From: a virus
Length of the DNA: 64,000 nt
Virus record (IMG/VR): IMGVR_UViG_3300033148_002693
Coordinates: 34,717 to 98,716 of that record
Strand: one strand, 5' to 3'
Positions 4,358 through 42,439 of the stretch are shown here, piece by piece (within the stretch, counting starts at the first letter, position 1; the number at the start of each line of letters is the position of its first letter). The notes beneath the pieces are model-generated. The model was not told the origin of the DNA and did no database searches. It worked only from the letters and a program-made list of their open reading frames with translations. The position numbers were made by a program, and so were the translations under genes.

Positions 4358-4893
4358 TGACTAAAATGAAGATGCGAACCGTACAAGTAGGCAGTTGGAA
4401 CAAGGGTGTTTCGCCCTGGGGATTTGACATTACCATCAAAGAGGGCACTGATATGGGTGGAGTGTTTACGGCGGTCTGGAAAACTGGCGATGCGTTTTGC
4501 AAAGTATATGCCAGATTGACGGCTGACCAGATGAAGTTGAGCGTTTGGCCTGGTAAAGGGCCTGGGCCACATCCACACAGGACTTCACACGAAGACACTG
4601 GATGGGCGTTCAAGTCGATAACGATTCGTAGGAGAAAACACGGTGTGTCTGGTCCTAGTCCTGGCTGGTTCGCTGGTGTCTTTTCGGATAGAAGGGTAGG
4701 AAAACCTGGCGGCAGAGCGAAGCGAGGGGCGACTCCTCCGTGGAAGTATTTATTCTTTTTGGAATTTGGCTGGACATCTAGAAGTGGTAAGAGGTACAGG
4801 TATCCCTGGGCGCAACCGGCGTATGCTTGGGCGGCCAAGAAGCGCGTGGGAAGAATCGCAGGCCCTAGCGGGCTGTTCATATCATCGAGGTAA
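4354..4893 (+). CDS. HK97 gp10-like neck/tail-completion protein
   Basis: DTG...SI, YLFFLEFG, YPWAQPA motifs; basic; synteny. Confidence 0.7.
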   Translation: MMTKMKMRTVQVGSWNKGVSPWGFDITIKEGTDMGGVFTAVWKTGDAFCKVYARLTADQMKLSVWPGKGPGPHPHRTSHEDTGWAFKSITIRRRKHGVSGPSPGWFAGVFSDRRVGKPGGRAKRGATPPWKYLFFLEFGWTSRSGKRYRYPWAQPAYAWAAKKRVGRIAGPSGLFISSR

Positions 4894-14788: not shown

Positions 14789-14944
14789 ATGAAACGGACA
14801 ACGATTTGGTTGGGGAGTGCAGACAAAGAAGCTATTGAAATCATTAAGGTAAAATATGGCATGAAATCTGATAGTGCTGTTATAAGATTTGCTTTGCGTA
14901 TTATAGCATCTTCTAAAGTAGGAATAAGTAATAATGAAAATTAA
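14789..14944 (+). CDS. 51-aa ribbon-helix-helix (CopG/Arc-like) protein (not in ORF track)
   Basis: MKRTTIWLGSADKEAIEIIKVKYGMKSDSAVIRFALR: alternating beta strand, helix, G-x-x-S turn, S-x-x-IR-x-AL helix; overlaps tnpB start. Confidence 0.75.
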   Translation: MKRTTIWLGSADKEAIEIIKVKYGMKSDSAVIRFALRIIASSKVGISNNEN

Positions 14945-16031
14945 GCGATCAGTAAAGTGTAGTCTAAAATTTACTAACAAGCGCAAGTTGCAAACATTAG
15001 ATATGATTCGTCAAGAATATGTACAAGTTGTCAATGGCTATATAGATTTGTGGTGGGATGATACGCCTGTAAAGGCAGAGCTAAAAAAGGATAAAATAGA
15101 TTTAATTGTAGATACTTGGTTCTCACAACGCATGAAACAAACCGCAGCTAGGGAAGCGGTAGATATGATTGCATCTGCTAGGCAATTGGCTAAGAAATGT
15201 AGTAAGGAACCGTCGAAGCCTGTACATACTGGAAAGCGAATGGCTTGGACTTCTAGCACTGCTAATCTTGTACTATCTAAGACTTCAGAATTTGATGCTT
15301 GGTTACAGATACGCTCTGTTGGCAATAAGGTTAAATTGGATATACCTATCCAATTTCATAGGCAATTTAATAAGTGGAATGCACGAGGCCGCCGCCTTAA
15401 TTTCTATGTGATTTTGCAAGATGCGATTCAATTTGTATTTGAAATCGAAACTGGCCCTAAACAGGAACCAGATCGTTGTGTAGGTGTAGATACTGGCATT
15501 AAGAAGTTGGCTACACTAAATACAGGGGTTATGTTTGGTGAAGATATTGAACAGATAGTTGCGAAGATTAAGCGGTGTGAATGGGGGAGTAAAGGACAGA
15601 AACGAGCAAGGTCTCATTTACGTCAAAGGATGGGAGAGGTTGCTAAAAAGGTTTGCGGGATTGCTTCATTGGTTGTAGTAGAAGATTTACAAAAGATGAA
15701 TCATAAGACGAAGGTCAAACGTCGCTTGACCAAAAACATGCGGCGCGCGCTTGGTGCATGGGCATATTCATACTGGTTAAATCGACTACAAATGACTTCT
15801 GAAGAAACGAACGTTTCGTTCCGTAGAGTCAGTCCTTACTATACCAGTCAAAGATGTAATGCATGTGGTCACACTGAGCGGAGCAATCGCAATGGCGAGA
15901 GTTTTCTTTGTCGAGATTGTGGCCATATTGATGATGCGGATATTAATGCCGCAAAGAATATTCTTGAGCGATTTCTCACCGGACGATATGGTGCCGGTTG
16001 TAAAGCCTTAATAGAACAAAATACTATCTAG
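14934..16031 (+). CDS. tnpB: TnpB RNA-guided endonuclease
   Basis: RuvC-I GVDTG, RuvC-II VVEDL, Zn finger CNAC..CRDC, RuvC-III DADINAAKN; all catalytic residues intact. Confidence 0.93.
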   Translation: MKIKRSVKCSLKFTNKRKLQTLDMIRQEYVQVVNGYIDLWWDDTPVKAELKKDKIDLIVDTWFSQRMKQTAAREAVDMIASARQLAKKCSKEPSKPVHTGKRMAWTSSTANLVLSKTSEFDAWLQIRSVGNKVKLDIPIQFHRQFNKWNARGRRLNFYVILQDAIQFVFEIETGPKQEPDRCVGVDTGIKKLATLNTGVMFGEDIEQIVAKIKRCEWGSKGQKRARSHLRQRMGEVAKKVCGIASLVVVEDLQKMNHKTKVKRRLTKNMRRALGAWAYSYWLNRLQMTSEETNVSFRRVSPYYTSQRCNACGHTERSNRNGESFLCRDCGHIDDADINAAKNILERFLTGRYGAGCKALIEQNTI

Positions 16032-32829: not shown

Positions 32830-33142
32830 CTATAATTGGAATTGTTTGGAGCATAAAACGGTGAGAATCAGACTGAACGACAAACAATGCAGGCCGACAT
32901 TGAGAAATAGGTTGGAGCTTCACGAGTTGTATCCAGATACAATCTTGCTGTTTCGTATCGGGGATTTTTATGAAGCGTTTGATGACGATGCAAAAGTGGT
33001 AGCTGAGGAATGCCGGATCATGCTCACCGGCGGAGTGATTTGTATCGCTGGTTTTCCATGTACATCCTCTGAGAAATACGTCAAGATGCTGGTTGATTCT
33101 GGTTTCAAAGTAGGATTGATAGATAATAGAATAAGTACTTGA
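32810..33142 (+). CDS. Stand-alone MutS domain I (mismatch-recognition domain)
   Basis: YPDTILLFRIGDFYEAFDDDAKVVA...AGFP...YVKMLVDSGFKV; start uncertain (GTG at 32861 possible). Confidence 0.85.
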   Translation: MRNCWCSYNWNCLEHKTVRIRLNDKQCRPTLRNRLELHELYPDTILLFRIGDFYEAFDDDAKVVAEECRIMLTGGVICIAGFPCTSSEKYVKMLVDSGFKVGLIDNRIST

Positions 33143-33167
33143 CAATATAATCACAATATGTTATAAT
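33139..33167 (+). promoter_or_regulatory. Consensus sigma70 promoter
   Basis: TTGACA-N17-TATAAT with TG. Confidence 0.9.
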
Positions 33168-33995: not shown

Positions 33996-34805
33996 ATGAG
34001 TTGGGCAGACAAAAGAGGAAAAGTATCCGAGACATGGTATGGAGCGAAATTGGACGAGGGTGTCTATTGTGCGACACTTGTCCGCATCGGAGAGCCGTTT
34101 GTAGTCCACAATAGACAGTATGGAACATCAATCAAGGTATCATTCGATTGGTGGCCCGATGTTTGCGACGATCCCAAACACTTGATCAGTGATGCCGTGA
34201 ACCTTCCGATGGTCCCCGGAGCATCAGAACAATTGGCCGAAACCAAAGGCCGACTCCCCGAAGATATGTACAATCTCATTGCAGATGAGTACGGATCACG
34301 TATGGCTATTTGCCAACTTGCATCCGTCCTTGGAGGTTATGAGATGGTCAAGGGGAAGGATGGTAAAGTGGAAAAAGAGTTGCTTCCATCGAAGATGCTC
34401 GGAGCGCGGGCATACATCACTGTGACGAAAGGCGAGAACAGGATGTATATCAAGCGTGAGGAGATCATGGCCGTCGAGTCAGACGATGAGCCGCCCGATA
34501 GGGTTTGGAAGAATCCCTGGACAGATAAGGGACAGAAGGAATCACGAGAGACCGCTCCTAAAGAGATCGTCGAGTATATACGGGAGTTGGCAACAACGAT
34601 GAAGAAAGCCTTCGGTGGGAAAGAGGGTGAGCAGTTCATCAAACGGGTAAATCGTGCCCGCACAGAGTTCGATCCAAAAAGTACCAAACTCAACAATGTG
34701 AGCGTAGAAGGGGCAAACAGGTTAATAACCTGGATGCGCGATGAATACGCAAAGGCTGAGATCGAATTCCCAGAACCGCCCGTCGATAGTGCGGATGAAT
34801 TGTAG
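33996..34805 (+). CDS. Hypothetical protein, possibly SSB/recombination-related
   Basis: LDEGVY.ATLV start and acidic tail resemble phage OB-fold SSBs; not verified. Confidence 0.4.
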   Translation: MSWADKRGKVSETWYGAKLDEGVYCATLVRIGEPFVVHNRQYGTSIKVSFDWWPDVCDDPKHLISDAVNLPMVPGASEQLAETKGRLPEDMYNLIADEYGSRMAICQLASVLGGYEMVKGKDGKVEKELLPSKMLGARAYITVTKGENRMYIKREEIMAVESDDEPPDRVWKNPWTDKGQKESRETAPKEIVEYIRELATTMKKAFGGKEGEQFIKRVNRARTEFDPKSTKLNNVSVEGANRLITWMRDEYAKAEIEFPEPPVDSADEL

Positions 34806-34832
34806 TTTGTGAGATACCGCTATGGCAGGGGA

Positions 34833-34948
34833 CATAGTGCATGGGTTGAGCTTGATTCGACGTAATGAATCCGGTGCGCCTGCAATGTATCGGGCATAGG
34901 CACTGTAAGGGGTTAATATAGAATACACAATGATACTCATGCACTATG
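34833..34948 (+). ncRNA. Kink-turn-containing structured RNA, copy 1
   Basis: 14-bp terminal stem (one G-U), U.U/G.A/A.G plus AAU bulge, internal hairpins; ~8 differences from copy 2. Confidence 0.75.
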
Positions 34949-34968
34949 CAACACAGGGAGGTTAGGCA

Positions 34969-35223
34969 ATGAAAACAGTAATAACAAAAAGGATTGAAAT
35001 GGCAACACAGGAAATACGCTTTGGCTATTGGGACATGGCCAGGCACAAATTTATCCCGCTTTATGACCTGAATGAGGATGAGAGCGCGGAGGCTGCCACC
35101 AAGCTAGGCGTTTCTGAGTTGTTGCTAGACTCACTTACGGTATTCTCAGACACAATAGCGGAACTGGTTGGCAGGGATTTGGCAAATATCTGGGAACGTC
35201 TGGATCGCATTGAGAAGAAATAG
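34969..35223 (+). CDS. Small hypothetical protein between the two RNA copies
   Basis: GGGAGG RBS; C-terminal coiled coil. Confidence 0.7.
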   Translation: MKTVITKRIEMATQEIRFGYWDMARHKFIPLYDLNEDESAEAATKLGVSELLLDSLTVFSDTIAELVGRDLANIWERLDRIEKK

Positions 35224-35229
35224 GTAACA

Positions 35230-35301
35230 ACCGCTACGCCATTCGTGACGGGAGAGGCCCGCAGCAGACACTTGGTTCTGGAATGACGGTGGCGCGGCGG
35301 T
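35230..35301 (+). ncRNA. Candidate ~72-nt three-way-junction RNA
   Basis: ACCGCT-A-CGCCATT pairs with GGTGGCG-C-GGCGGT; two internal hairpins. Confidence 0.55.
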
Positions 35302-35305
35302 AAGG

Positions 35306-35420
35306 CATAGTGCATGGGTTGAGCTTGATTCGACGTAATGAATCCGGTGCACCTGCAATGTATCGGGCATAGGCACTGTATAGGTTAATATGGGATACCC
35401 AATGATACCCATGCACTATG
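35306..35420 (+). ncRNA. Kink-turn-containing structured RNA, copy 2
   Basis: CATAGTGCATGGGT/ACCCATGCACTATG perfect 14-bp stem plus canonical k-turn. Confidence 0.75.
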
Positions 35421-35426
35421 TAATAT

Positions 35427-35499
35427 GGCTGGTGTAGCTCATTGGGGTGATAGAGCACCGCTTTGCGGAGGTAGTGGGTTCGACTCTCACCATCAGCCA
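35427..35499 (+). tRNA. tRNA-like RNA with truncated anticodon arm (no assignable anticodon)
   Basis: Acceptor GCTGGTG/CATCAGC, TA, D-stem GCTC/GAGC, T-arm GTGGG-TTCGACT-CTCAC; anticodon arm only CCGC-TTT-GCGG. Confidence 0.8.
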
Positions 35500-35504
35500 A
35501 TATA

Positions 35505-36023
35505 ATGGAGGGTGAAATGATGTGGTATAGCAATCGCACGATGATCGTCAAGGAAGACTTGGAACCTATCGAATGGCATGGTATGCCAGGGATGGAGCCA
35601 CGTATTGGTGATAGGGTAGTCTCTGACGCAATCATTCATTTTGGAAAGAGCAAAGACCAATACCTGAGTCAGCAGAATTCCCATTGGCTATCGTTCGTGT
35701 TTAGGAGTCAATCAAGACCAGGGTGGCAGCTTCAGTTGATTTGGGATATGGGGATGGCCTTGCTGTCCAGAGAACGAGTGAAAAAGGGAAGTCAGAGCGA
35801 TCCTTTATTAAATCTGTGGTGTTCGCTACGAAGGCAGAATTACGATCCTGGGATGATATGGGCCAGCATTGAAATTTGGACGGAAGAAGAGATGAACGAG
35901 GTTGTTCAAGACTTGATAGATAAATACGCAAGGCGTGTGCATCCATATGTTATACGTTCACCTTTGGGCGAACATGCTCAGGATGCCGTAGACATGGAAG
36001 CGCAAATGTTTGATGAATTCTAA
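35505..36023 (+). CDS. Hypothetical protein
   Basis: ORF with GGAGG RBS (start probably near 35517). Confidence 0.7.
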   Translation: MEGEMMWYSNRTMIVKEDLEPIEWHGMPGMEPRIGDRVVSDAIIHFGKSKDQYLSQQNSHWLSFVFRSQSRPGWQLQLIWDMGMALLSRERVKKGSQSDPLLNLWCSLRRQNYDPGMIWASIEIWTEEEMNEVVQDLIDKYARRVHPYVIRSPLGEHAQDAVDMEAQMFDEF

Positions 36024-36070
36024 GAGGCCAGCCCGTAGACTGACCTCTCAGATAGAAGAGTGGAAGTGGC
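36019..36070 (-). ncRNA. Candidate antisense sRNA with 15-bp C(UACG)G hairpin
   Basis: Stem is fully paired only on the minus strand (G-U pairs); lies just downstream of a minus-strand promoter; 3' end unknown. Confidence 0.6.
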
Positions 36071-36443
36071 AGATTCATTATATCACACGGAATTGGAAAA
36101 GTCAAGCGATTCAGGAATGATTTCTAACACGGCTCTCTATATTGCTTTGATTTCTGGAAACAGGATTGATCCTGTGACTTGGAAAATCGAGCATGGTCGA
36201 TTGACTATTGTTGCCACCTCTTTACCATTAGACAAACTCTATCGTTGGCGTTGTTGTATATCCTATGATGGCAAGCTGGTATTGCGCGCTCTCAAAACTG
36301 CTGATGGGAGGTATGATCTGAAATGGTACAATGATGGAGATTGGGTAGAAGAGTTGGAAAATCTGCGGTTGCATGTGCTTGACAAGCTAGTGCGGCGCGC
36401 ACCGAAAGGAGGTGAGAATAGTGAACGCAAAACAACATCATGA
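36060..36443 (+). CDS. Hypothetical protein (start uncertain)
   Basis: ORF track; protein-like C-terminal two thirds. Confidence 0.55.
   Translation: MEVADSLYHTELEKSSDSGMISNTALYIALISGNRIDPVTWKIEHGRLTIVATSLPLDKLYRWRCCISYDGKLVLRALKTADGRYDLKWYNDGDWVEELENLRLHVLDKLVRRAPKGGENSERKTTS
36077..36105 (-). promoter_or_regulatory. Minus-strand sigma70 promoter
   Basis: Reverse complement reads TTGACT-N17-TATAAT with TG extension. Confidence 0.75.
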
Positions 36444-36816
36444 GATGATGAACTACGACCGAAAGGAATTGCGGCGTGAAATCAAAGAGACACTATCCGT
36501 TTTGGTCAAGAGTGCAGACGGTTCGTCTCGTTGGGTATCTTTCAGGGACCCTGTGGTTGATTCTAAGGGCAAAGGGAATCAAACAGTGATGGTCGCCCGT
36601 GCGCTTGTCAATGGTCAACATCATTTCGCCAGGGTTCAAGTGAAGTGTGGACCTGGGGATGAATGGAGCGATACAGTTGCATATGAATTGCTCCTTGAGC
36701 GAGCCATCGTCGAGATCATCAATCAGGTCATGGACAGGATTGCCTGGGAAGATAGTCGCTATTTCATTAAGAGTAGCATGTGGGAAATACTGTTCGGGAG
36801 GCTACTGAGAGAATGA
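36412..36816 (+). CDS. Hypothetical protein
   Basis: AAGGAGGTG RBS; CGPGDEWSDTVAYELLLERA motif. Confidence 0.65.
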   Translation: MRIVNAKQHHEMMNYDRKELRREIKETLSVLVKSADGSSRWVSFRDPVVDSKGKGNQTVMVARALVNGQHHFARVQVKCGPGDEWSDTVAYELLLERAIVEIINQVMDRIAWEDSRYFIKSSMWEILFGRLLRE

Positions 36817-36887
36817 AAGTAGCAAGGTGTCCTAAGTGCAAGAGGCCCCTTGACAAAGATGGTCATTGTCCGAGAGGTTGTGTGTAG
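36813..36887 (+). CDS. 24-aa Cys4 micro-peptide (not in ORF track)
   Basis: ATGA-coupled, GGGAGG RBS; MKVARCPKCKRPLDKDGHCPRGCV. Confidence 0.55.
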   Translation: MKVARCPKCKRPLDKDGHCPRGCV

Positions 36888-36892
36888 ATTTG

Positions 36893-36975
36893 TGCCAGCG
36901 CAGCGCCATTCTGGTGAGGTTTCGGAAAGCTGAAACTAAGAGGAGAAATCCGAGGTGCAAATCCTCCCGCTGGCA
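36893..36975 (+). ncRNA. Second tRNA-shaped RNA (non-canonical)
   Basis: Acceptor GCCAGCG/CGCTGGC+A, T-arm GAGG-TGCAAAT-CCTC, 8-bp arm with 4-nt loop in place of the anticodon arm, GAAA-capped variable arm. Confidence 0.6.
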
Positions 36976-37149
36976 TTGATATGGATCGTCGTGAGACGAC
37001 TTAACCGTACGCCAGGAGCGGTATAGCAAGTATCCGGGACGCCGAAGACTGATGGGGTGCGTGGAAAATCAGGCGGCACGGCTCAGAGAATAGTGTCGAG
37101 GCTCATCGGTAAACATCAGAGATTAAAGCCAACGCATGAAAGGAAACCA

Positions 37150-37665
37150 ATGAAGCGGAGATTCACAGCACAAGCATCCACAATTCAAAGAGACCTGATG
37201 AACGTGGTACGGAAGATGGGGACGACAAGCTTGCACGTCACCCAAGACATTTTCAGTGGCAAAGCTGAGATCGTATTCGACCGCGATGGTCAGAGGTACA
37301 TATTTCGATGCGACAGGTATCAAGATGCCCTTGACAATATGAGGGCCGCACAATTGACTATAACGTACCTGTGGCGCGCCTTGGAAGAGTATGGCGTTCA
37401 AAGTGAAACCGAGGATTTTGGGCAGTTGTTCTCTCAGTTCTTTCTTGGGTTCTCGGTTATGCCAGATGATTCGACTTTGCTATTGTCAGATGGATCACAG
37501 GAATGGCATGAGGTTCTTGGTATAGAACCAGATGCAGAAAAGGTAGCGATCATCAATGCGTACAGGGCTTTGGCAAGGATATACCACCCCGATGCTGGTG
37601 GGGACCCCGCGATGTTCAGGCGACTTAGGGAAGCATACGAAGAGGGAATGGAGCAATGGAACTGA
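37150..37665 (+). CDS. J-domain (DnaJ-like) protein
   Basis: WHEVLG...AYRALARIYHPDAGGD...LREAYE. Confidence 0.9.
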   Translation: MKRRFTAQASTIQRDLMNVVRKMGTTSLHVTQDIFSGKAEIVFDRDGQRYIFRCDRYQDALDNMRAAQLTITYLWRALEEYGVQSETEDFGQLFSQFFLGFSVMPDDSTLLLSDGSQEWHEVLGIEPDAEKVAIINAYRALARIYHPDAGGDPAMFRRLREAYEEGMEQWN

Positions 37666-38024: not shown

Positions 38025-38493
38025 ATTGAAAGTGACAGCAGAAGCATTACTTGAATTGTTGGAGCGCGACTTCGGCTATAATGAAGAGGCACGCAAAACA
38101 GCATTGGAAATTAATGATATGGCTGAACCCTGGGACAGTATGAATGCACTACGCCTAGCATTGGCAAGGTTTGAGTGGATTAGCGTTGATGATGACTTGC
38201 CCAAAATTCCAGGTATGATGACATTCGTTGCATACAAGTCGGGCTGGATTGCAGGCAATGTGTACAACGTAGTGTTAGCACGATGGAAAGAGGGCAAGTG
38301 GTGGTGGAATTCTAGTCAACCAATAACAGTAAGGATTCTGTATTGGCAACCAGTGTATTGGCCCGATCCACCTGAGATTGAAAAAGGAGGTATGGCTATT
38401 TTTGGCGGGAAGCCGCCATTAGTCGGCTGGCCTCACACATCTTGTCGCGATGGCGGCTTCTATGTAAATTGGAAACGGAAATTTGACATTTAA
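38017..38493 (+). CDS. DUF551-like protein
   Basis: WISVDDDLP...ILYWQPVYWPDPP. Confidence 0.65.
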   Translation: MNELKVTAEALLELLERDFGYNEEARKTALEINDMAEPWDSMNALRLALARFEWISVDDDLPKIPGMMTFVAYKSGWIAGNVYNVVLARWKEGKWWWNSSQPITVRILYWQPVYWPDPPEIEKGGMAIFGGKPPLVGWPHTSCRDGGFYVNWKRKFDI

Positions 38494-38511
38494 TAACTTA
38501 TATGTTATAAT
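38483..38511 (+). promoter_or_regulatory. Consensus sigma70 promoter
   Basis: TTGACA-N17-TATAAT with TG. Confidence 0.9.
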
Positions 38512-38588
38512 AGGATCATAAGAGGCCCATAGGGGGGCAACCGATGATCCGCTTGGCAAACGGGGAGGATGTAGATGAGGACAGGCAA

Positions 38589-38690
38589 GCAAAAAGTCTC
38601 ACTCATGTGGGCTGATCGGCCCTTTGCCTTTGCCAGAGGCAAAAGTCTTGCCTGTCAGCCGTATCAGCTCACATGAATGAGGCTTTTTGT
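38589..38690 (+). ncRNA. C4-like antisense/attenuator RNA in the replication-operon leader
   Basis: ~30-bp closing stem enclosing TTTGCCA and CTTGCCTGTC, complementary to upstream TGGCAAA (38554) and GACAGGCAAG (38580). Confidence 0.65.
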
Positions 38691-38717
38691 TTTACAGTAA
38701 AACTAGAAAGGGTTTGT

Positions 38718-38963
38718 ATGTTTTTCAAACGTTGGCGAGTCAACAGACTCAAGAACCTCACATACGACAAATACCTCCAAACACGTCATTGGAGGCGTCT
38801 CCGCAATAAAGCACTCGAAAGAACATTGCATCGTTGCCAATTGTGCAATGGTAGAAATCGGCTTGAAGTCCATCATAGAACATACGAGAGGCTTGGCGAG
38901 GAGCGGTTGGAAGATTTGACCGTTCTATGCCACAAGTGCCACATACTGTATCATGGGAAATGA
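38718..38963 (+). CDS. HNH endonuclease
   Basis: YDKYLQTRHW...CQLC...LEVHHRTY...EDLTVLCHKCH. Confidence 0.9.
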   Translation: MFFKRWRVNRLKNLTYDKYLQTRHWRRLRNKALERTLHRCQLCNGRNRLEVHHRTYERLGEERLEDLTVLCHKCHILYHGK

Positions 38964-40601: not shown

Positions 40602-41226
40602 AGCCGCCGAGAGATTCGGCCTTAGTCGCCGTTCCCTCATTCGCTACGAGGCAGACGGGCTGATAGAACCAGTACGTACCCCTGGTGGTCAGCGGCGTTA
40701 TCCTGAGTCTGAGCTTCTGCGGCTCTACGGGCTTGAGACGAAAACCAAGCCGGATGGCGATAGAGCGGGATTGTACAGCCGTGTTTCTACCCGCAAGCAA
40801 GCCGACTCAGGCAATCTTGACCGACAAACGCAGCGGCTAAAGGACTATGCTCAAGCTGCTGGCTTCGACACTGTTGAGGTATATGAGGAAATCGCCAGTG
40901 GCTTGAACGAAAACCGCCGTCAGTTGCGGAAGTTGCTGAAGACAATCATTGCGGGTAAGGTTAATGTCGTGGTCGTGGAGTACAAAGACCGCCTTGCCCG
41001 CTTCGGCTATGCTTATCTTGAGTTGTTCTGTGAGTCTCACGGGGCGCGGATCGTAGCCATTGAAGAAAAAGCGTCTGACGACGAGAATGAAGAATTGGTC
41101 AAGGATTTGATTTCTGTTGTGACAAGTTTTTCAGCGAGACTTTATGGGCGGCGTGGGGGCCGTAAAGCAAAGAAGGAACTTGAGGAACAGTTGCGTGGCG
41201 AAGGTAAAGAGAGCGCACAAAATTAG
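40579..41226 (+). CDS. tnpA: IS607 TnpA serine recombinase
   Basis: MerR-type HTH (RTPGGQRRY), YSRVST catalytic Ser, EIASG, DRLARFG, ELVKDL. Confidence 0.95.
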   Translation: MKLYTQAEAAERFGLSRRSLIRYEADGLIEPVRTPGGQRRYPESELLRLYGLETKTKPDGDRAGLYSRVSTRKQADSGNLDRQTQRLKDYAQAAGFDTVEVYEEIASGLNENRRQLRKLLKTIIAGKVNVVVVEYKDRLARFGYAYLELFCESHGARIVAIEEKASDDENEELVKDLISVVTSFSARLYGRRGGRKAKKELEEQLRGEGKESAQN

Positions 41227-42439
41227 ATTGAATCCTACCACAGAGCAGGCGCAATGGTTGCTCCGGGCTTGCGGTGTGGCTAGGTTTTGTTACAACTGGG
41301 GACTCGAAAGATGGCGCGAGCAATACGAGGCCGGCGGGAAGCCGTCCGCCTATAAGCTCAAGAAGCAGTTCAACGCCATCAAGTCGGGGGAATATCCCTG
41401 GGTTTACGAGGTTGACAAGTGCGCTCAGGACACAGGGTTCCGCAATCTCGATATGGCCTTCAAGAACTTCTTTCGTCGGTGCAAGGGCGGTGATGCTAAG
41501 AAGGGCTATCCCCGCTTCAAATCTCGCAAGCATAGCAAGTTGTCATATCGGATAGATGGTTGTCGTGTTAGGTTAGACGGTCACTGGATCAAACTTCCCA
41601 AGTTGGACAAACCAATCAACATGACCGAGACCTTGCGATTTGACGGCGAAGTCAAATCGGTCACGATCTCCAAAGATGGTAAGCATTGGTATGCGGCAAT
41701 CAATGTAGAAGTCGAACCGCCAGAGCACGAGCATCTGCAAGGATCGGTTGGGATAGATTTGGGTATAAAGACGTTAGCTGTTCTCTCGGATGGCATACAG
41801 TATGAGAATCAAAGACTGCTACGCTCAGAACTGGGAAAGCTAAAGCGTCTGAACCGTGAGTTATCTCGTCGATCACAGGGCAGTAATCGCTGGAAGCGCA
41901 CCAAAGCAAAGCTGGCAAGATTGCACCGACGCATAGCCAATCGCCGATCAGACTACCAGCACAAGATGACGACAAAGATCGCTAGTACATACCGAGTTGT
42001 TGGCATTGAAGATTTGAACGTGGCGGGGATGCTCAGGAATCATCGTCTGGCCCTGTCTATCAGCGATGCGGGGTTTGGAGAAATTCGTCGCCAGCTATTA
42101 TACAAGAGCAAATGGTATGGTGGCGAGTTGGTGGAGATTGACCGCTTTTTTCCATCTAGTAAGCTCTGTCGGTTTTGCGGTTGCATCAATGATGGCTTAA
42201 CGCTGGCAGATCGGGAATGGGCTTGCGACTGTGGTGCTGTATTAGACCGGGATCGAAACGCGGCTATCAATATCGAAATGAAAGCACTGAGAATTTTGGG
42301 CCGGAGTGGGTTCACGGACCAAGTAAAAAACGGACGTGGACAGAATGTCAGACCCTTCGGGGCAGTTCTGAATGAAACGTCAAAAATGGTCGAGGAAAGG
42401 CGACCGTCCAAGCCGTGTCAGTTTGGCACAATTTGGTAA
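41195..42439 (+). CDS. tnpB: TnpB RNA-guided endonuclease
   Basis: HTH_OrfB start, GIDLG, IEDL, CRFC..CDC, DRDRNAAIN. Confidence 0.95.
   Translation: MAKVKRAHKIRLNPTTEQAQWLLRACGVARFCYNWGLERWREQYEAGGKPSAYKLKKQFNAIKSGEYPWVYEVDKCAQDTGFRNLDMAFKNFFRRCKGGDAKKGYPRFKSRKHSKLSYRIDGCRVRLDGHWIKLPKLDKPINMTETLRFDGEVKSVTISKDGKHWYAAINVEVEPPEHEHLQGSVGIDLGIKTLAVLSDGIQYENQRLLRSELGKLKRLNRELSRRSQGSNRWKRTKAKLARLHRRIANRRSDYQHKMTTKIASTYRVVGIEDLNVAGMLRNHRLALSISDAGFGEIRRQLLYKSKWYGGELVEIDRFFPSSKLCRFCGCINDGLTLADREWACDCGAVLDRDRNAAINIEMKALRILGRSGFTDQVKNGRGQNVRPFGAVLNETSKMVEERRPSKPCQFGTIW

What the first reader, a model, noticed from the sequence alone, without database searches (positions are those of the whole stretch)
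34810..37130. Phage RNA island: candidate multi-RNA decoy/anti-defence or RNP system
Seen: 2.3 kb of the early region packs at least six separately folding RNAs between small unknown ORFs. They are two k-turn RNAs, a junction RNA, two tRNA-shaped RNAs without anticodons and an antisense hairpin RNA, with further structure at 36980-37125. None looks like a decoding tRNA. The + strand RNAs have no visible promoter of their own, and each is closed by a terminal stem with only 4-6 nt between neighbours (35301/35306, 35420/35427). Inference: they are cut from one precursor by host RNase P/Z/III and act as RNA mimics or sponges of host RNA-binding or defence proteins, or form RNPs with the neighbouring small proteins. 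This is my best candidate for an undescribed system.
Basis: partly seen in the sequence, partly recalled or inferred. Interest (0 to 1): 0.88.

Follow-up and report, generated by a model that had tools for sequence, protein, structure and literature searches.

The report
Non-decoding tRNA-like RNAs in phage operon
Between small orphan genes of one operon, a 98.7-kb phage carries a tRNA-shaped element with no anticodon loop, a second cloverleaf-shaped RNA and a duplicated 115-base structured element; they most likely mark where host tRNA-trimming enzymes cut the long messenger RNA, but nothing shows they form one new "system".

Summary
Four of the claimed features are real. These are a 115-nt element present twice (K1, K2; 14-bp closing stem), a tRNA body with an 11-nt mini anticodon arm (Rfam tRNA 41 bits, ARAGORN none), a stable cloverleaf-shaped RNA, and a minus-strand consensus promoter driving a hairpin that pairs fully only on that strand. 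The "junction RNA" is weak (z -1.5). The "further structure" at 36980-37125 is not supported (z +0.7). The k-turn is only a tandem G.A motif in inverted box C/D order.

The island has no plus-strand promoter. It lies in the operon of a perfect sigma-70 promoter at 33139. No homologue of K, J or the neighbouring proteins was found in any collection, so covariation could not be tested and the "system" claim stays open.

Two new facts emerged. The phage encodes Ro60 with three Y-like RNAs about 60 kb away, with no detectable link to the island. tRNA-like genes with a shortened anticodon arm recur in about 12 other IMG/VR contigs, and more often than true tRNAs they sit just upstream of an ORF start.

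Best reading (0.4): t-element-like processing signals for RNase P/Z. This scan's earlier AI notes describe similar anticodon-less tRNA look-alikes in over 100 other phage genomes.

The parts
33139..33167 (+). Consensus sigma-70 promoter (TTGACA-17-TATAAT with TG) that heads the operon containing the island
   Evidence: 12 of 12 match. The next plus-strand promoter of this strength is at 38483.
34816..34832 (+). Stub of element J (ACCGCTA + TGGCAGGGGA) in front of K1; looks like J with an internal deletion
   Evidence: Read and compared with 35230-35305. This is inference.
34833..34948 (+). K1, copy 1 of the 115-nt structured repeat. It ends 20 nt before the ATG of ORF84, with the SD GGGAGG in between.
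34969..35223 (+). ORF84, a small acidic orphan protein lying between the two K copies
   Evidence: no Pfam or PHROG family.
35226..35303 (+). J, a GC-rich 11-of-12-bp stem enclosing about 48 nt; structure only weakly supported
   Evidence: z -1.49; 19 of 200 shuffles fold as well.
35306..35420 (+). K2, copy 2 of the repeat, with a perfect 14-bp closing stem and an extra GGG-AUA-CCC hairpin absent from K1
35427..35498 (+). Non-decoding tRNA-like element. It has G-1:C73, a 7-bp acceptor stem, intact D and T arms and an 11-nt mini anticodon arm (CCGC-UUU-GCGG). No CCA is encoded. It ends 8 nt before the SD GGAGGG of ORF172.
35517..36023 (+). ORF172 (true start probably the ATG at 35517 or 35520), an orphan protein
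   Evidence: (only itself among 5.8 billion proteins).
36019..36105 (-). Antisense unit: promoter TTGACT-17-TATAAT(TG) at 36105-36077, then a 15-bp C(UACG)G hairpin at 36052-36019. It is antisense to the ORF172 stop codon and the ORF127 start region.
   Evidence: pairing read.
36813..36887 (+). 24-codon ORF (CPKC...HCPRGC, zinc-ribbon-like) whose start overlaps the ORF134 stop in ATGA; it ends 5 nt before the next RNA
   Evidence: Read; no family match.
36893..36978 (+). Cloverleaf-shaped RNA 2: an 8-bp closing stem, a CGCCA-UUC-UGGUG hairpin, a 7-8-bp arm capped by AAAG, a GGA-GAAA-UCC extra arm, and T-arm GAGG-UGCAAAU-CCUC
   Evidence: z -3.62, 0 of 200 shuffles; not matched by RF00005 at E<=10.
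36980..37125 (+). Claimed 'further structure'; not supported. It contains one GCCGAAG word (37040-37046), which is expected by chance.
   Evidence: z +0.73.

Best explanation
The island is not a self-contained RNA system. It is the intercistronic RNA of one sigma-70-driven phage operon running from promoter 33139 to at least 38483. The tRNA-like element at 35427-35498, and probably the cloverleaf at 36893-36978, work like the t-elements of plant mitochondria. These are tRNA-derived folds that keep the acceptor/T-arm helix and the D/T elbow read by host RNase P, RNase Z and the CCA-adding enzyme, but have lost the decoding loop.

Cutting at their ends would split the polycistronic transcript. 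It would free the upstream K2/J RNA and give the ORF172 mRNA a defined 5' end 8 nt before its Shine-Dalgarno sequence. A stable tRNA-shaped by-product would be released. K1 and K2, each placed upstream of an ORF, would be further processing or stabilising structures, like the repeated RNase III sites of T7 and SP82 early mRNAs. The antisense RNA from 36105 would add one more cut or a translational block at the ORF172/ORF127 junction.

Shown: the folds, the tRNA-model score, the missing anticodon loop, the promoter map, and the positions relative to ORF starts. Inferred: every cleavage event and every effect on mRNA.
For: (1) The element scores 41.1 bits against RF00005 with all 20 stem pairs standard and core positions retained (U8, A14, GG in the D loop, UUCGA in the T loop, G53:C61). 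Only the anticodon arm is cut to 11 nt. That arm is the part dispensable to RNase P, RNase Z and the CCA-adding enzyme (established knowledge).
(2) There is no plus-strand promoter or terminator inside the island, and perfect promoters flank it.
(3) The element ends 8 nt before the SD of ORF172, and K1 ends 7 nt before the SD of ORF84.
(4) The narrow pattern scan of IMG/VR returned about 12 other tRNA-like genes with shortened anticodon arms, scoring 38-51 bits against RF00005 and mostly not called by ARAGORN.
(5) Six of 13 such elements, against 2 of 30 true tRNAs from the same scan, are followed within 60 nt by an SD and start of an ORF of 45 codons or more on the same strand. Fisher p is 0.006; it is 0.026 when related contigs are collapsed and 0.07 without the window's own element.
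(6) In one lineage (L053, L055, L056, L057, L062) the acceptor and T stems are 100% paired, with 4 compensatory pairs between them, while the mini arm varies freely. Such elements are therefore maintained by selection on the upper half of the fold.
(7) There is precedent: t-elements direct RNase P/Z cuts that form mRNA ends (Forner et al. 2007, PMC1920247).
Against: There is no homologue of this locus, so this copy shows no conservation or covariation. The SD-proximity statistic is small, partly non-independent, and its control set came from a scan artefact (AGAGC falling in the anticodon stem). The 14-bp K stem is shorter than classical RNase III substrates of about 20 bp, and the K1/K2 comparison shows no compensatory change. 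A clean single 6-nt deletion in a recently acquired tRNA gene could give the same picture.
Confidence: 0.4

Rival explanations
1. The tRNA-shaped RNAs, and perhaps K, are stable trans-acting mimics. They would bind or soak up host factors that read the upper half or the acceptor end of tRNA. Candidates are tRNA-targeting defence nucleases or toxins, HisRS, the CCA-adding enzyme and EF-Tu. The RNAs might even be aminoacylated without being able to decode.
For: The decoding loop is removed cleanly while the rest of the fold is perfect. G-1:C73, the histidine identity pair that works without the anticodon (established knowledge), is present here and in two other independent truncated elements, L038 and L042. 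The chance of 3 in 10 lineages is 0.02. Another lineage keeps an invariant G3:U70 with A73, the alanine identity. The phage has no ordinary tRNA gene, so these are not leftovers inside a working tRNA set.
Against: There is no partner protein, no defence-related neighbour and no expression data. The identity-element counts are small and the scan pattern favours certain tRNA types. Processing out of an mRNA is also what the best explanation predicts, so the two readings are not exclusive.
Confidence: 0.2
2. The island RNAs are extra clients or regulators of the phage's own Ro60 particle, forming a second, distant Y-RNA-like locus.
For: The phage encodes a Ro60/Rsr-like protein (TROVE plus Ro60 vWA domains; best solved relative is Thermus phage phiLo Ro60, E 7e-26) at genome 9326-10807. 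Three Y-like RNAs lie directly upstream, one of them embedding a tRNA-like domain. Known Y RNAs mimic tRNA (PMC4201824). One other phage with a truncated tRNA-like element also has Ro60, again far from the element.
Against: The island is about 60 kb from Ro60, whereas known Y RNAs lie within 4 kb (PMC4201824). There is no RF02553 match at E<=10. The shared 5' 'handle' of the three Y-like RNAs does not detect K: nhmmer finds nothing and the Smith-Waterman score is no better than random genome sites. Only 1 of 12 other truncated-element records has TROVE. The K model finds nothing in 14 records, including five with a Ro60 gene related to this phage's and G012.
Confidence: 0.08
3. These are remnants without function: a tRNA gene that suffered a 6-nt deletion, a decayed class II tRNA, and a recent local duplication (J+K) still drifting.
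For: The locus is a singleton with no conserved relatives. K1 looks like a degraded copy: G.U in the stem, the K2 hairpin lost, and a J stub in front. J and 36980-37125 are not significantly structured.
Against: There is not a single stem mismatch in the tRNA-like element, and the mini arm is a perfect hairpin. The same kind of truncation recurs in unrelated phages and is kept with compensatory changes in one lineage. Differences between K1 and K2 are concentrated in the last 41 nt (1 in 75 against 6 in 41, p 0.008). That is not uniform drift.
Confidence: 0.2
4. K is a DNA-level element, either a MITE-like insertion with 14-bp terminal inverted repeats or a recombination site, and not an RNA.
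For: It has perfect 14-bp terminal inverted repeats around 87 bp, in two copies as direct repeats 473 bp apart.
Against: There are no target-site duplications. There are only two copies in the genome. A core 20-mer of K finds no copy in the 185,579 species genomes apart from one chance match with unrelated flanks, and none in the metagenome collection. The G.U pairs fall only on the plus strand, the transcribed strand.
Confidence: 0.05

Closest known systems
t-elements of plant mitochondrial mRNAs and tRNA punctuation (Forner et al. 2007, PMC1920247)
   Same: Non-canonical tRNA-like folds with a conserved T-arm motif lie at or between mRNAs. They have no decoding role, are read by RNase P and RNase Z to create mRNA 5' and 3' ends, and can release a stable t-element RNA.
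   Different: Here the setting is a bacteriophage operon. Cleavage is not shown. The element is far more tRNA-like (41 bits) and carries a His-type G-1:C73.
YrlA / Y RNAs of bacteria and Ro60-encoding phages (Rfam RF02553; Chen et al. 2014, PMC4201824; phiLo Yrl1/2, PMC12135203)
   Same: These are tRNA mimics with intact D and T arms and no decoding function, and the same phage encodes Ro60.
   Different: YrlA is circularly permuted (T - sealed acceptor - D), carries GNCGAAN0-1G in a 5'/3' stem and lies within 4 kb of Ro60. The island element has normal tRNA topology with open ends, no RF02553 match and no such motif, and lies about 60 kb away.
RNase III processing sites of phage early polycistronic mRNAs (T7 R0.3-R1.3; Bacillus phage SP82) - from my own knowledge, not checked in a paper here
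   Same: These are sequence-related structured elements repeated between cistrons of an early operon, placed just upstream of ORFs. They are cut to separate and stabilise mRNAs.
   Different: K is a multi-helix junction with only a 14-bp perfect stem. No cleavage data exist, and only two copies are present.
Aminoacylatable non-decoding tRNA mimics: the tmRNA tRNA-like domain (Ala) and plant-virus 3' tRNA-like structures (His, Val, Tyr) - from my own knowledge
   Same: The acceptor/T half is kept, decoding is lost, and the identity elements are ones that work without the anticodon (G-1:C73 here; G3:U70 in the L053 lineage).
   Different: There is no evidence of charging. The element is internal to an operon, not at an RNA 3' end, and ARAGORN finds no tmRNA.
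Box C/D kink-turn RNAs
   Same: AAUGAU and UUGA words can form tandem G.A/A.G plus U.U next to a helix.
   Different: The box order is inverted, box C matches 5 of 7 and box D 3 of 4, no canonical C-stem is visible, and the phage has no L7Ae-family protein.

Membership tests
tRNA (Rfam RF00005), decoding | Cloverleaf scoring above the family gathering score | tested here: met
   35428-35498 scores 41.1 bits against a gathering score of 29. 36893-36978 has no match at E<=10.
tRNA (Rfam RF00005), decoding | 5-bp anticodon stem with a 7-nt loop carrying an anticodon | tested here: not met
   The arm is 11 nt (CCGC-UUU-GCGG). ARAGORN reports 0 genes in the window.
YrlA / Y RNA (RF02553) | Match to the YrlA covariance model, with permuted order T arm - sealed acceptor - D arm | tested here: not met
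   No RF02553 hit at E<=10 in 34500-37500. The same search does find YrlA next to Ro60 in related phages. The topology here is that of an ordinary tRNA.
YrlA / Y RNA (RF02553) | GNCGAAN0-1G Ro60-binding motif in the stem formed by the RNA ends | tested here: not met
   The motif is absent from K1, K2, J and both tRNA-like elements. A single GCCGAAG at 37040 lies in unstructured sequence.
YrlA / Y RNA (RF02553) | Encoded within about 4 kb of Ro60 on the same strand | tested here: not met
   Ro60 lies at genome 9326-10807 and the island at genome 69.5-71.9 kb. The strand is the same.
t-element / tRNA punctuation | Non-decoding tRNA-like fold with a conserved T arm, inside a longer transcript next to an mRNA end | tested here: met
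   the element has no promoter of its own and ends 8 nt before the SD of ORF172.
t-element / tRNA punctuation | Cleavage by RNase P and/or RNase Z at the element borders | not testable with these tools
   This needs end mapping or in-vitro cleavage. The RNA-seq route was unavailable.
Box C/D k-turn RNA | Box C RUGAUGA on the 5' side and box D CUGA on the 3' side of a terminal canonical stem, bound by an L7Ae-family protein | tested here: not met
   The order is inverted and the boxes are imperfect (read). No PF01248 match in the genome.
RNase III site of phage early mRNA | About two turns of dsRNA, with or without an internal loop, between cistrons, and cut by RNase III | tested here: inconclusive
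   The position between cistrons and the repetition fit. The perfect helix is only 14 bp, extended by three non-standard pairs. Cleavage is not testable.
MITE / IS-derived element (for K) | Terminal inverted repeats plus target-site duplication, and many dispersed copies | tested here: not met
   Terminal inverted repeats are present. There is no duplication, only 2 copies exist, and none was found elsewhere.

The most novel reading that the evidence does not exclude
Phages carry a so far undescribed class of tRNA-derived RNAs whose anticodon arm is deliberately shortened but whose acceptor end keeps identity elements of anticodon-independent synthetases. That is G-1:C73 (His) in this phage, L038 and L042, and G3:U70 with A73 (Ala) in the L053 lineage. 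After release from the operon by RNase P/Z and CCA addition, they would be charged but could not decode. They would then act in trans: as decoys for acceptor-end or tRNA-body targeting defence toxins, as amino-acid donors, or, in this phage, as additional partners of its own Ro60 particle. On this reading the island would be the RNA half of such a counter-defence or RNP device.
Probability: 0.18. Interest if true: 0.8.

Novelty: new variant of a known kind. Interest (0 to 1): 0.55.

Why it matters
If the tRNA-like elements are processing signals, phages use the tRNA punctuation logic of organelles to cut and stabilise their operon mRNAs. Genome annotation would then be missing a common class of cis elements, because they are invisible to tRNA finders. 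If instead they are released, and possibly charged, as tRNA mimics, they would be a new type of phage small RNA aimed at the host's tRNA-reading machinery or at tRNA-targeting immunity. Either outcome can be tested with simple end mapping and in-vitro RNase P, RNase Z and HisRS assays. The specific multi-RNA "system" claim for this island matters less, because nothing ties its parts together beyond co-transcription.

Tried and rejected
Homologue searches, all empty:
- blastn of the island against 50,697 GenBank phages.
- Neighbour proteins ORF172, ORF275, the DnaJ-domain protein and the replication initiator against IMG/VR and metagenome contigs.
- ORF172 against 5.8 billion proteins; it found only itself.
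- DNA patterns for the tRNA-like element and for K in IMG/VR.
- A K 20-mer in metagenome contigs.
- The same K 20-mer in 185,579 species genomes: one match, in a Bryobacteraceae MAG, with unrelated flanks, so a chance hit.
- tblastn of the helicase against phages.

K as a Y RNA was rejected. An nhmmer profile of the Ro60-adjacent RNA 'handle' finds only its own three copies. The Smith-Waterman score of K against that handle equals random genome sites. A covariance model of K finds nothing in 14 viral records. Island DNA against five viral records with a Ro60 gene related to this phage's gave only chance 14-31-nt matches. Those records have few extra tRNA-like elements.

Phage-encoded partners were sought and not found: L7Ae, RtcB and TGT families. 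Pfam and PHROGs scans of neighbours and of minus-strand ORFs overlapping the RNAs gave nothing. The protein atlas gave no usable hit for ORF172.

Other rejected or failed routes:
- Rfam at E<=10 over 34500-37500 returned only the one tRNA hit. This excludes known ribozymes, riboswitches, T-box, tmRNA and 6S.
- The K1/K2 consensus fold shows no compensatory pair.
- Literature searches found no description of phage tRNA-likes without an anticodon loop.
- A genome-wide z-score comparison of intergenic regions failed: the script machine gave no answer, then killed the job. Its partial output is not used.

No genomic context of database proteins and no read evidence could be obtained.
Full report
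CONTEXT. The window is positions 34717-98716 of a complete 98,716-bp IMG/VR virus record with direct terminal repeats. G+C is 48% and genes run almost entirely on the plus strand. No cultured phage is close. The island DNA, the helicase and the neighbouring proteins have no match in 50,697 GenBank phages or in IMG/VR.

Promoters are of the textbook TTGACA-17-TATAAT type, mostly with an extended TG. On the plus strand they lie at window 26000, 28697, 33139, 38483, 38968, 48752 and 53639. On the minus strand they lie only at 36105 and 52023. The island (34810-37130) therefore sits inside the transcription unit that starts at 33139. It has no plus-strand promoter or terminator of its own.

WHAT IS REALLY THERE.

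(a) A 115/116-nt element occurs twice, as K1 (34833-34948) and K2 (35306-35420), and nowhere else in the genome. Each is closed by a 14-bp stem. Fold energies lie about 3 sd below shuffled sequence. These are the strongest intergenic long-range inverted repeats in the window. The G.U pairs lie on the plus strand. The copies differ at 1 of 75 positions in the 5' part and 6 of 41 in the 3' part (p 0.008). None of the differences is compensatory. K2 has a GGG-AUA-CCC hairpin that K1 lacks. K1 is preceded by what looks like an internally deleted J, so the unit J+K was duplicated.

(b) 35428-35498 matches the Rfam tRNA model at 41.1 bits (gathering score 29), although its anticodon arm is only CCGC-UUU-GCGG. 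ARAGORN calls nothing. All acceptor, D and T stem pairs are standard and the elbow nucleotides are kept. G at -1 faces C73, and no CCA is encoded. The element starts 6 nt after K2 and ends 8 nt before the GGAGGG Shine-Dalgarno sequence of ORF172.

(c) 36893-36978 folds into a very stable five-helix cloverleaf-like shape (z -3.6, 0 of 200 shuffles). Its T-arm word is GGUGCAAAUCC. The tRNA model does not match it even at E<=10.

(d) The minus-strand promoter at 36105-36077 is followed after about 18 nt by a 15-bp C(UACG)G hairpin. Three of its pairs are G.U on the minus strand and C.A on the plus strand. It is antisense to the ORF172 stop and the ORF127 start region.

(e) J has a GC-rich stem, but its fold is not better than 19 of 200 shuffles. 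36980-37125 folds no better than shuffled sequence (z +0.7).

(f) The 'kink-turn' is a UUGA/AAUGAU pair next to the closing stem. It is in the inverted order relative to box C/D, has no visible canonical stem on the other side, and the phage has no L7Ae-type protein.

(g) The ORFs between the RNAs are orphans without Pfam or PHROG families. The one exception downstream is a DnaJ-domain protein. The minus-strand ORFs overlapping the RNAs match nothing.

THE RO60 LEAD. Looking for a reason why a phage would make tRNA look-alikes, I searched the whole genome for a TROVE domain. It encodes a 493-aa Ro60/Rsr-like protein (TROVE plus Ro60 vWA domains; best solved relative the Ro60 of Thermus phage phiLo, E 7e-26) at genome 9326-10807. 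That is outside the window.

Directly upstream, behind their own promoter, lie three tandem RNAs with a common 5' handle. The third embeds an unpermuted tRNA-like domain with a complete GUA anticodon arm (52.5 bits) inside a GAGAGGG/CCCUCUC stem, and carries GCCGAAAG on its 3' side. Phages with a related Ro60 (45-49% identical) carry canonical permuted YrlA at the same place. This fits the published picture of Y RNAs next to Ro60 in bacteria and phages (PMC4201824; PMC12135203).

The island cannot be tied to it. It lies about 60 kb away and has no YrlA match or GNCGAA motif. The handle profile and a Smith-Waterman scan do not pick out K above background. The K model finds nothing in 14 viral records, including five with a Ro60 gene related to this phage's and G012.

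A RECURRING CLASS. The locus has no homologue, so I asked whether its most distinctive part recurs. The pattern used was a consensus D arm, a spacer too short for a normal anticodon arm, and a consensus T arm. It returned 54 IMG/VR contigs. Most were true tRNAs caught through AGAGC in their anticodon stem.

About 12 contigs carry genuine tRNA-like genes with arms of 7-14 nt. Several arms are neat mini hairpins (GCGG-UGCG-CCGC, CCGG-UCCG-CCGG, CCC-AAAG-GGG, GCG-UUGAU-CGC). They score 38-51 bits against RF00005 and are mostly ignored by ARAGORN. One contig (L065) holds three aberrant tRNA-likes. They share no neighbour protein with each other or with the window. Only 1 of the 12 records has a TROVE gene.

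In the L053, L055, L056, L057 and L062 lineage the acceptor and T stems are 100% paired, with 4 compensatory pairs between them, while the mini arm varies. So this kind of element is maintained by selection on the upper half of the fold.

Two patterns stand out. First, 6 of 13 truncated elements, against 2 of 30 true tRNAs from the same scan, are followed within 60 nt by an SD and start of a real-sized ORF on the same strand. Fisher p is 0.006; it is 0.026 after collapsing relatives and 0.07 without the window's element. Second, acceptor identity elements that work without the anticodon recur. G-1:C73 is present here, in L038 and in L042. An invariant G3:U70 with A73 marks the L053 lineage. 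Both samples are small and the scan pattern is biased, so these are leads, not results.

MECHANISM. The most economical reading is that the tRNA-like elements act in cis as t-elements. The parts kept are the ones RNase P, RNase Z and the CCA-adding enzyme need, and the part lost is the one they do not need. The elements have no promoter, and they abut ORF starts. Plant mitochondria use exactly such degenerate tRNA folds to create mRNA ends and release stable t-element RNAs (PMC1920247).

K1 and K2 each sit upstream of an ORF. They could be further processing or stabilising structures, like the repeated RNase III sites of T7 and SP82 early RNA (my own knowledge). Their 14-bp helix is short for that enzyme. 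I put this reading at 0.4.

It does not exclude a trans function of the released RNAs as mimics or decoys, possibly charged (0.2). The other readings are functionless remnants of a tRNA gene and a local duplication (0.2), Ro60 clients (0.08), and K as a DNA-level element (0.05).

VERDICT. The idea of release from a precursor is reasonable. The claim of one undescribed multi-RNA decoy or RNP system is not supported by anything beyond co-transcription, and the locus is a singleton. The interesting residue is at the level of the class: tRNA-like elements with a shortened anticodon arm in phage operons. I could not find these described in the literature. This scan's earlier AI notes report them in more than 100 other genomes; those notes are unchecked leads, not evidence.

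Noticed in passing
Outside the window: genome G000:C1 8983-10807 (= L004:8983-10807): A phage Ro60/Rsr-like gene (493 aa, TROVE plus Ro60 vWA domains) is preceded by its own TTGACA-17-TATACT promoter and three tandem Y-like RNAs sharing a 5' handle (G.G.CASUGAUGRG.GRG.UACUUCG). The third embeds an unpermuted tRNA-like domain with a full GUA anticodon arm, which ARAGORN calls 'tRNA-Tyr' although only the lower 5 bp of its acceptor stem pair. This differs from the permuted YrlA found next to Ro60 in the related phages L006-L011.
   Followed up: partly
Outside the window: genome 1-34716 (L004, L005): GTP cyclohydrolase I, a QueD-type 6-pyruvoyl-tetrahydropterin synthase, a nucleoside 2-deoxyribosyltransferase, a RadC-like JAB protein, an N6/N4 DNA methylase and many methyl- and glycosyltransferases are present. 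FolE plus QueD suggests 7-deazaguanine chemistry, but no TGT/DpdA-family gene was found.
   Followed up: partly
window 14934-16031, 41144-42439, 49497-50723: Three TnpB/OrfB-type transposase genes (phrog_506; E 1e-126 and 1e-108 for two, and a weaker third) lie in one phage genome.
   Followed up: no
window 36813-36887: A 24-codon ORF (MKVARCPKCKRPLDKDGHCPRGCV) has its start overlapping the stop of ORF134 in ATGA. It has a zinc-ribbon-like cysteine pattern and lies immediately before the cloverleaf-shaped RNA.
   Followed up: no
L065:642-711, 1180-1250, 4577-4667 (IMGVR_UViG_3300037245_001213): Another phage contig carries three aberrant tRNA-like genes beside one normal tRNA-Thr. One has a mini anticodon arm, one has a 5-bp stem with a 4-nt loop, and one has a 32-nt insert in the anticodon region.
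   Followed up: partly
L053:751-823, L055:1064-1136, L056:643-715, L057:9173-9245, L062:7072-7139 (all minus strand): A lineage of anticodon-less tRNA-likes has an invariant G3:U70 (with A73 in four of five), compensatory changes in the acceptor and T stems, and a free-varying mini arm. Most lie 27-44 nt upstream of an SD and start codon.
   Followed up: partly
The batch scan does not name the matching member. The ORF ends at the 33139 promoter.
   Followed up: no
window 38483-38700: A perfect promoter at 38483 is followed by a terminator-like hairpin at 38609-38622 and then an HNH endonuclease gene at 38673-38963. This may be a leader or attenuator region ahead of the replication genes.
   Followed up: no
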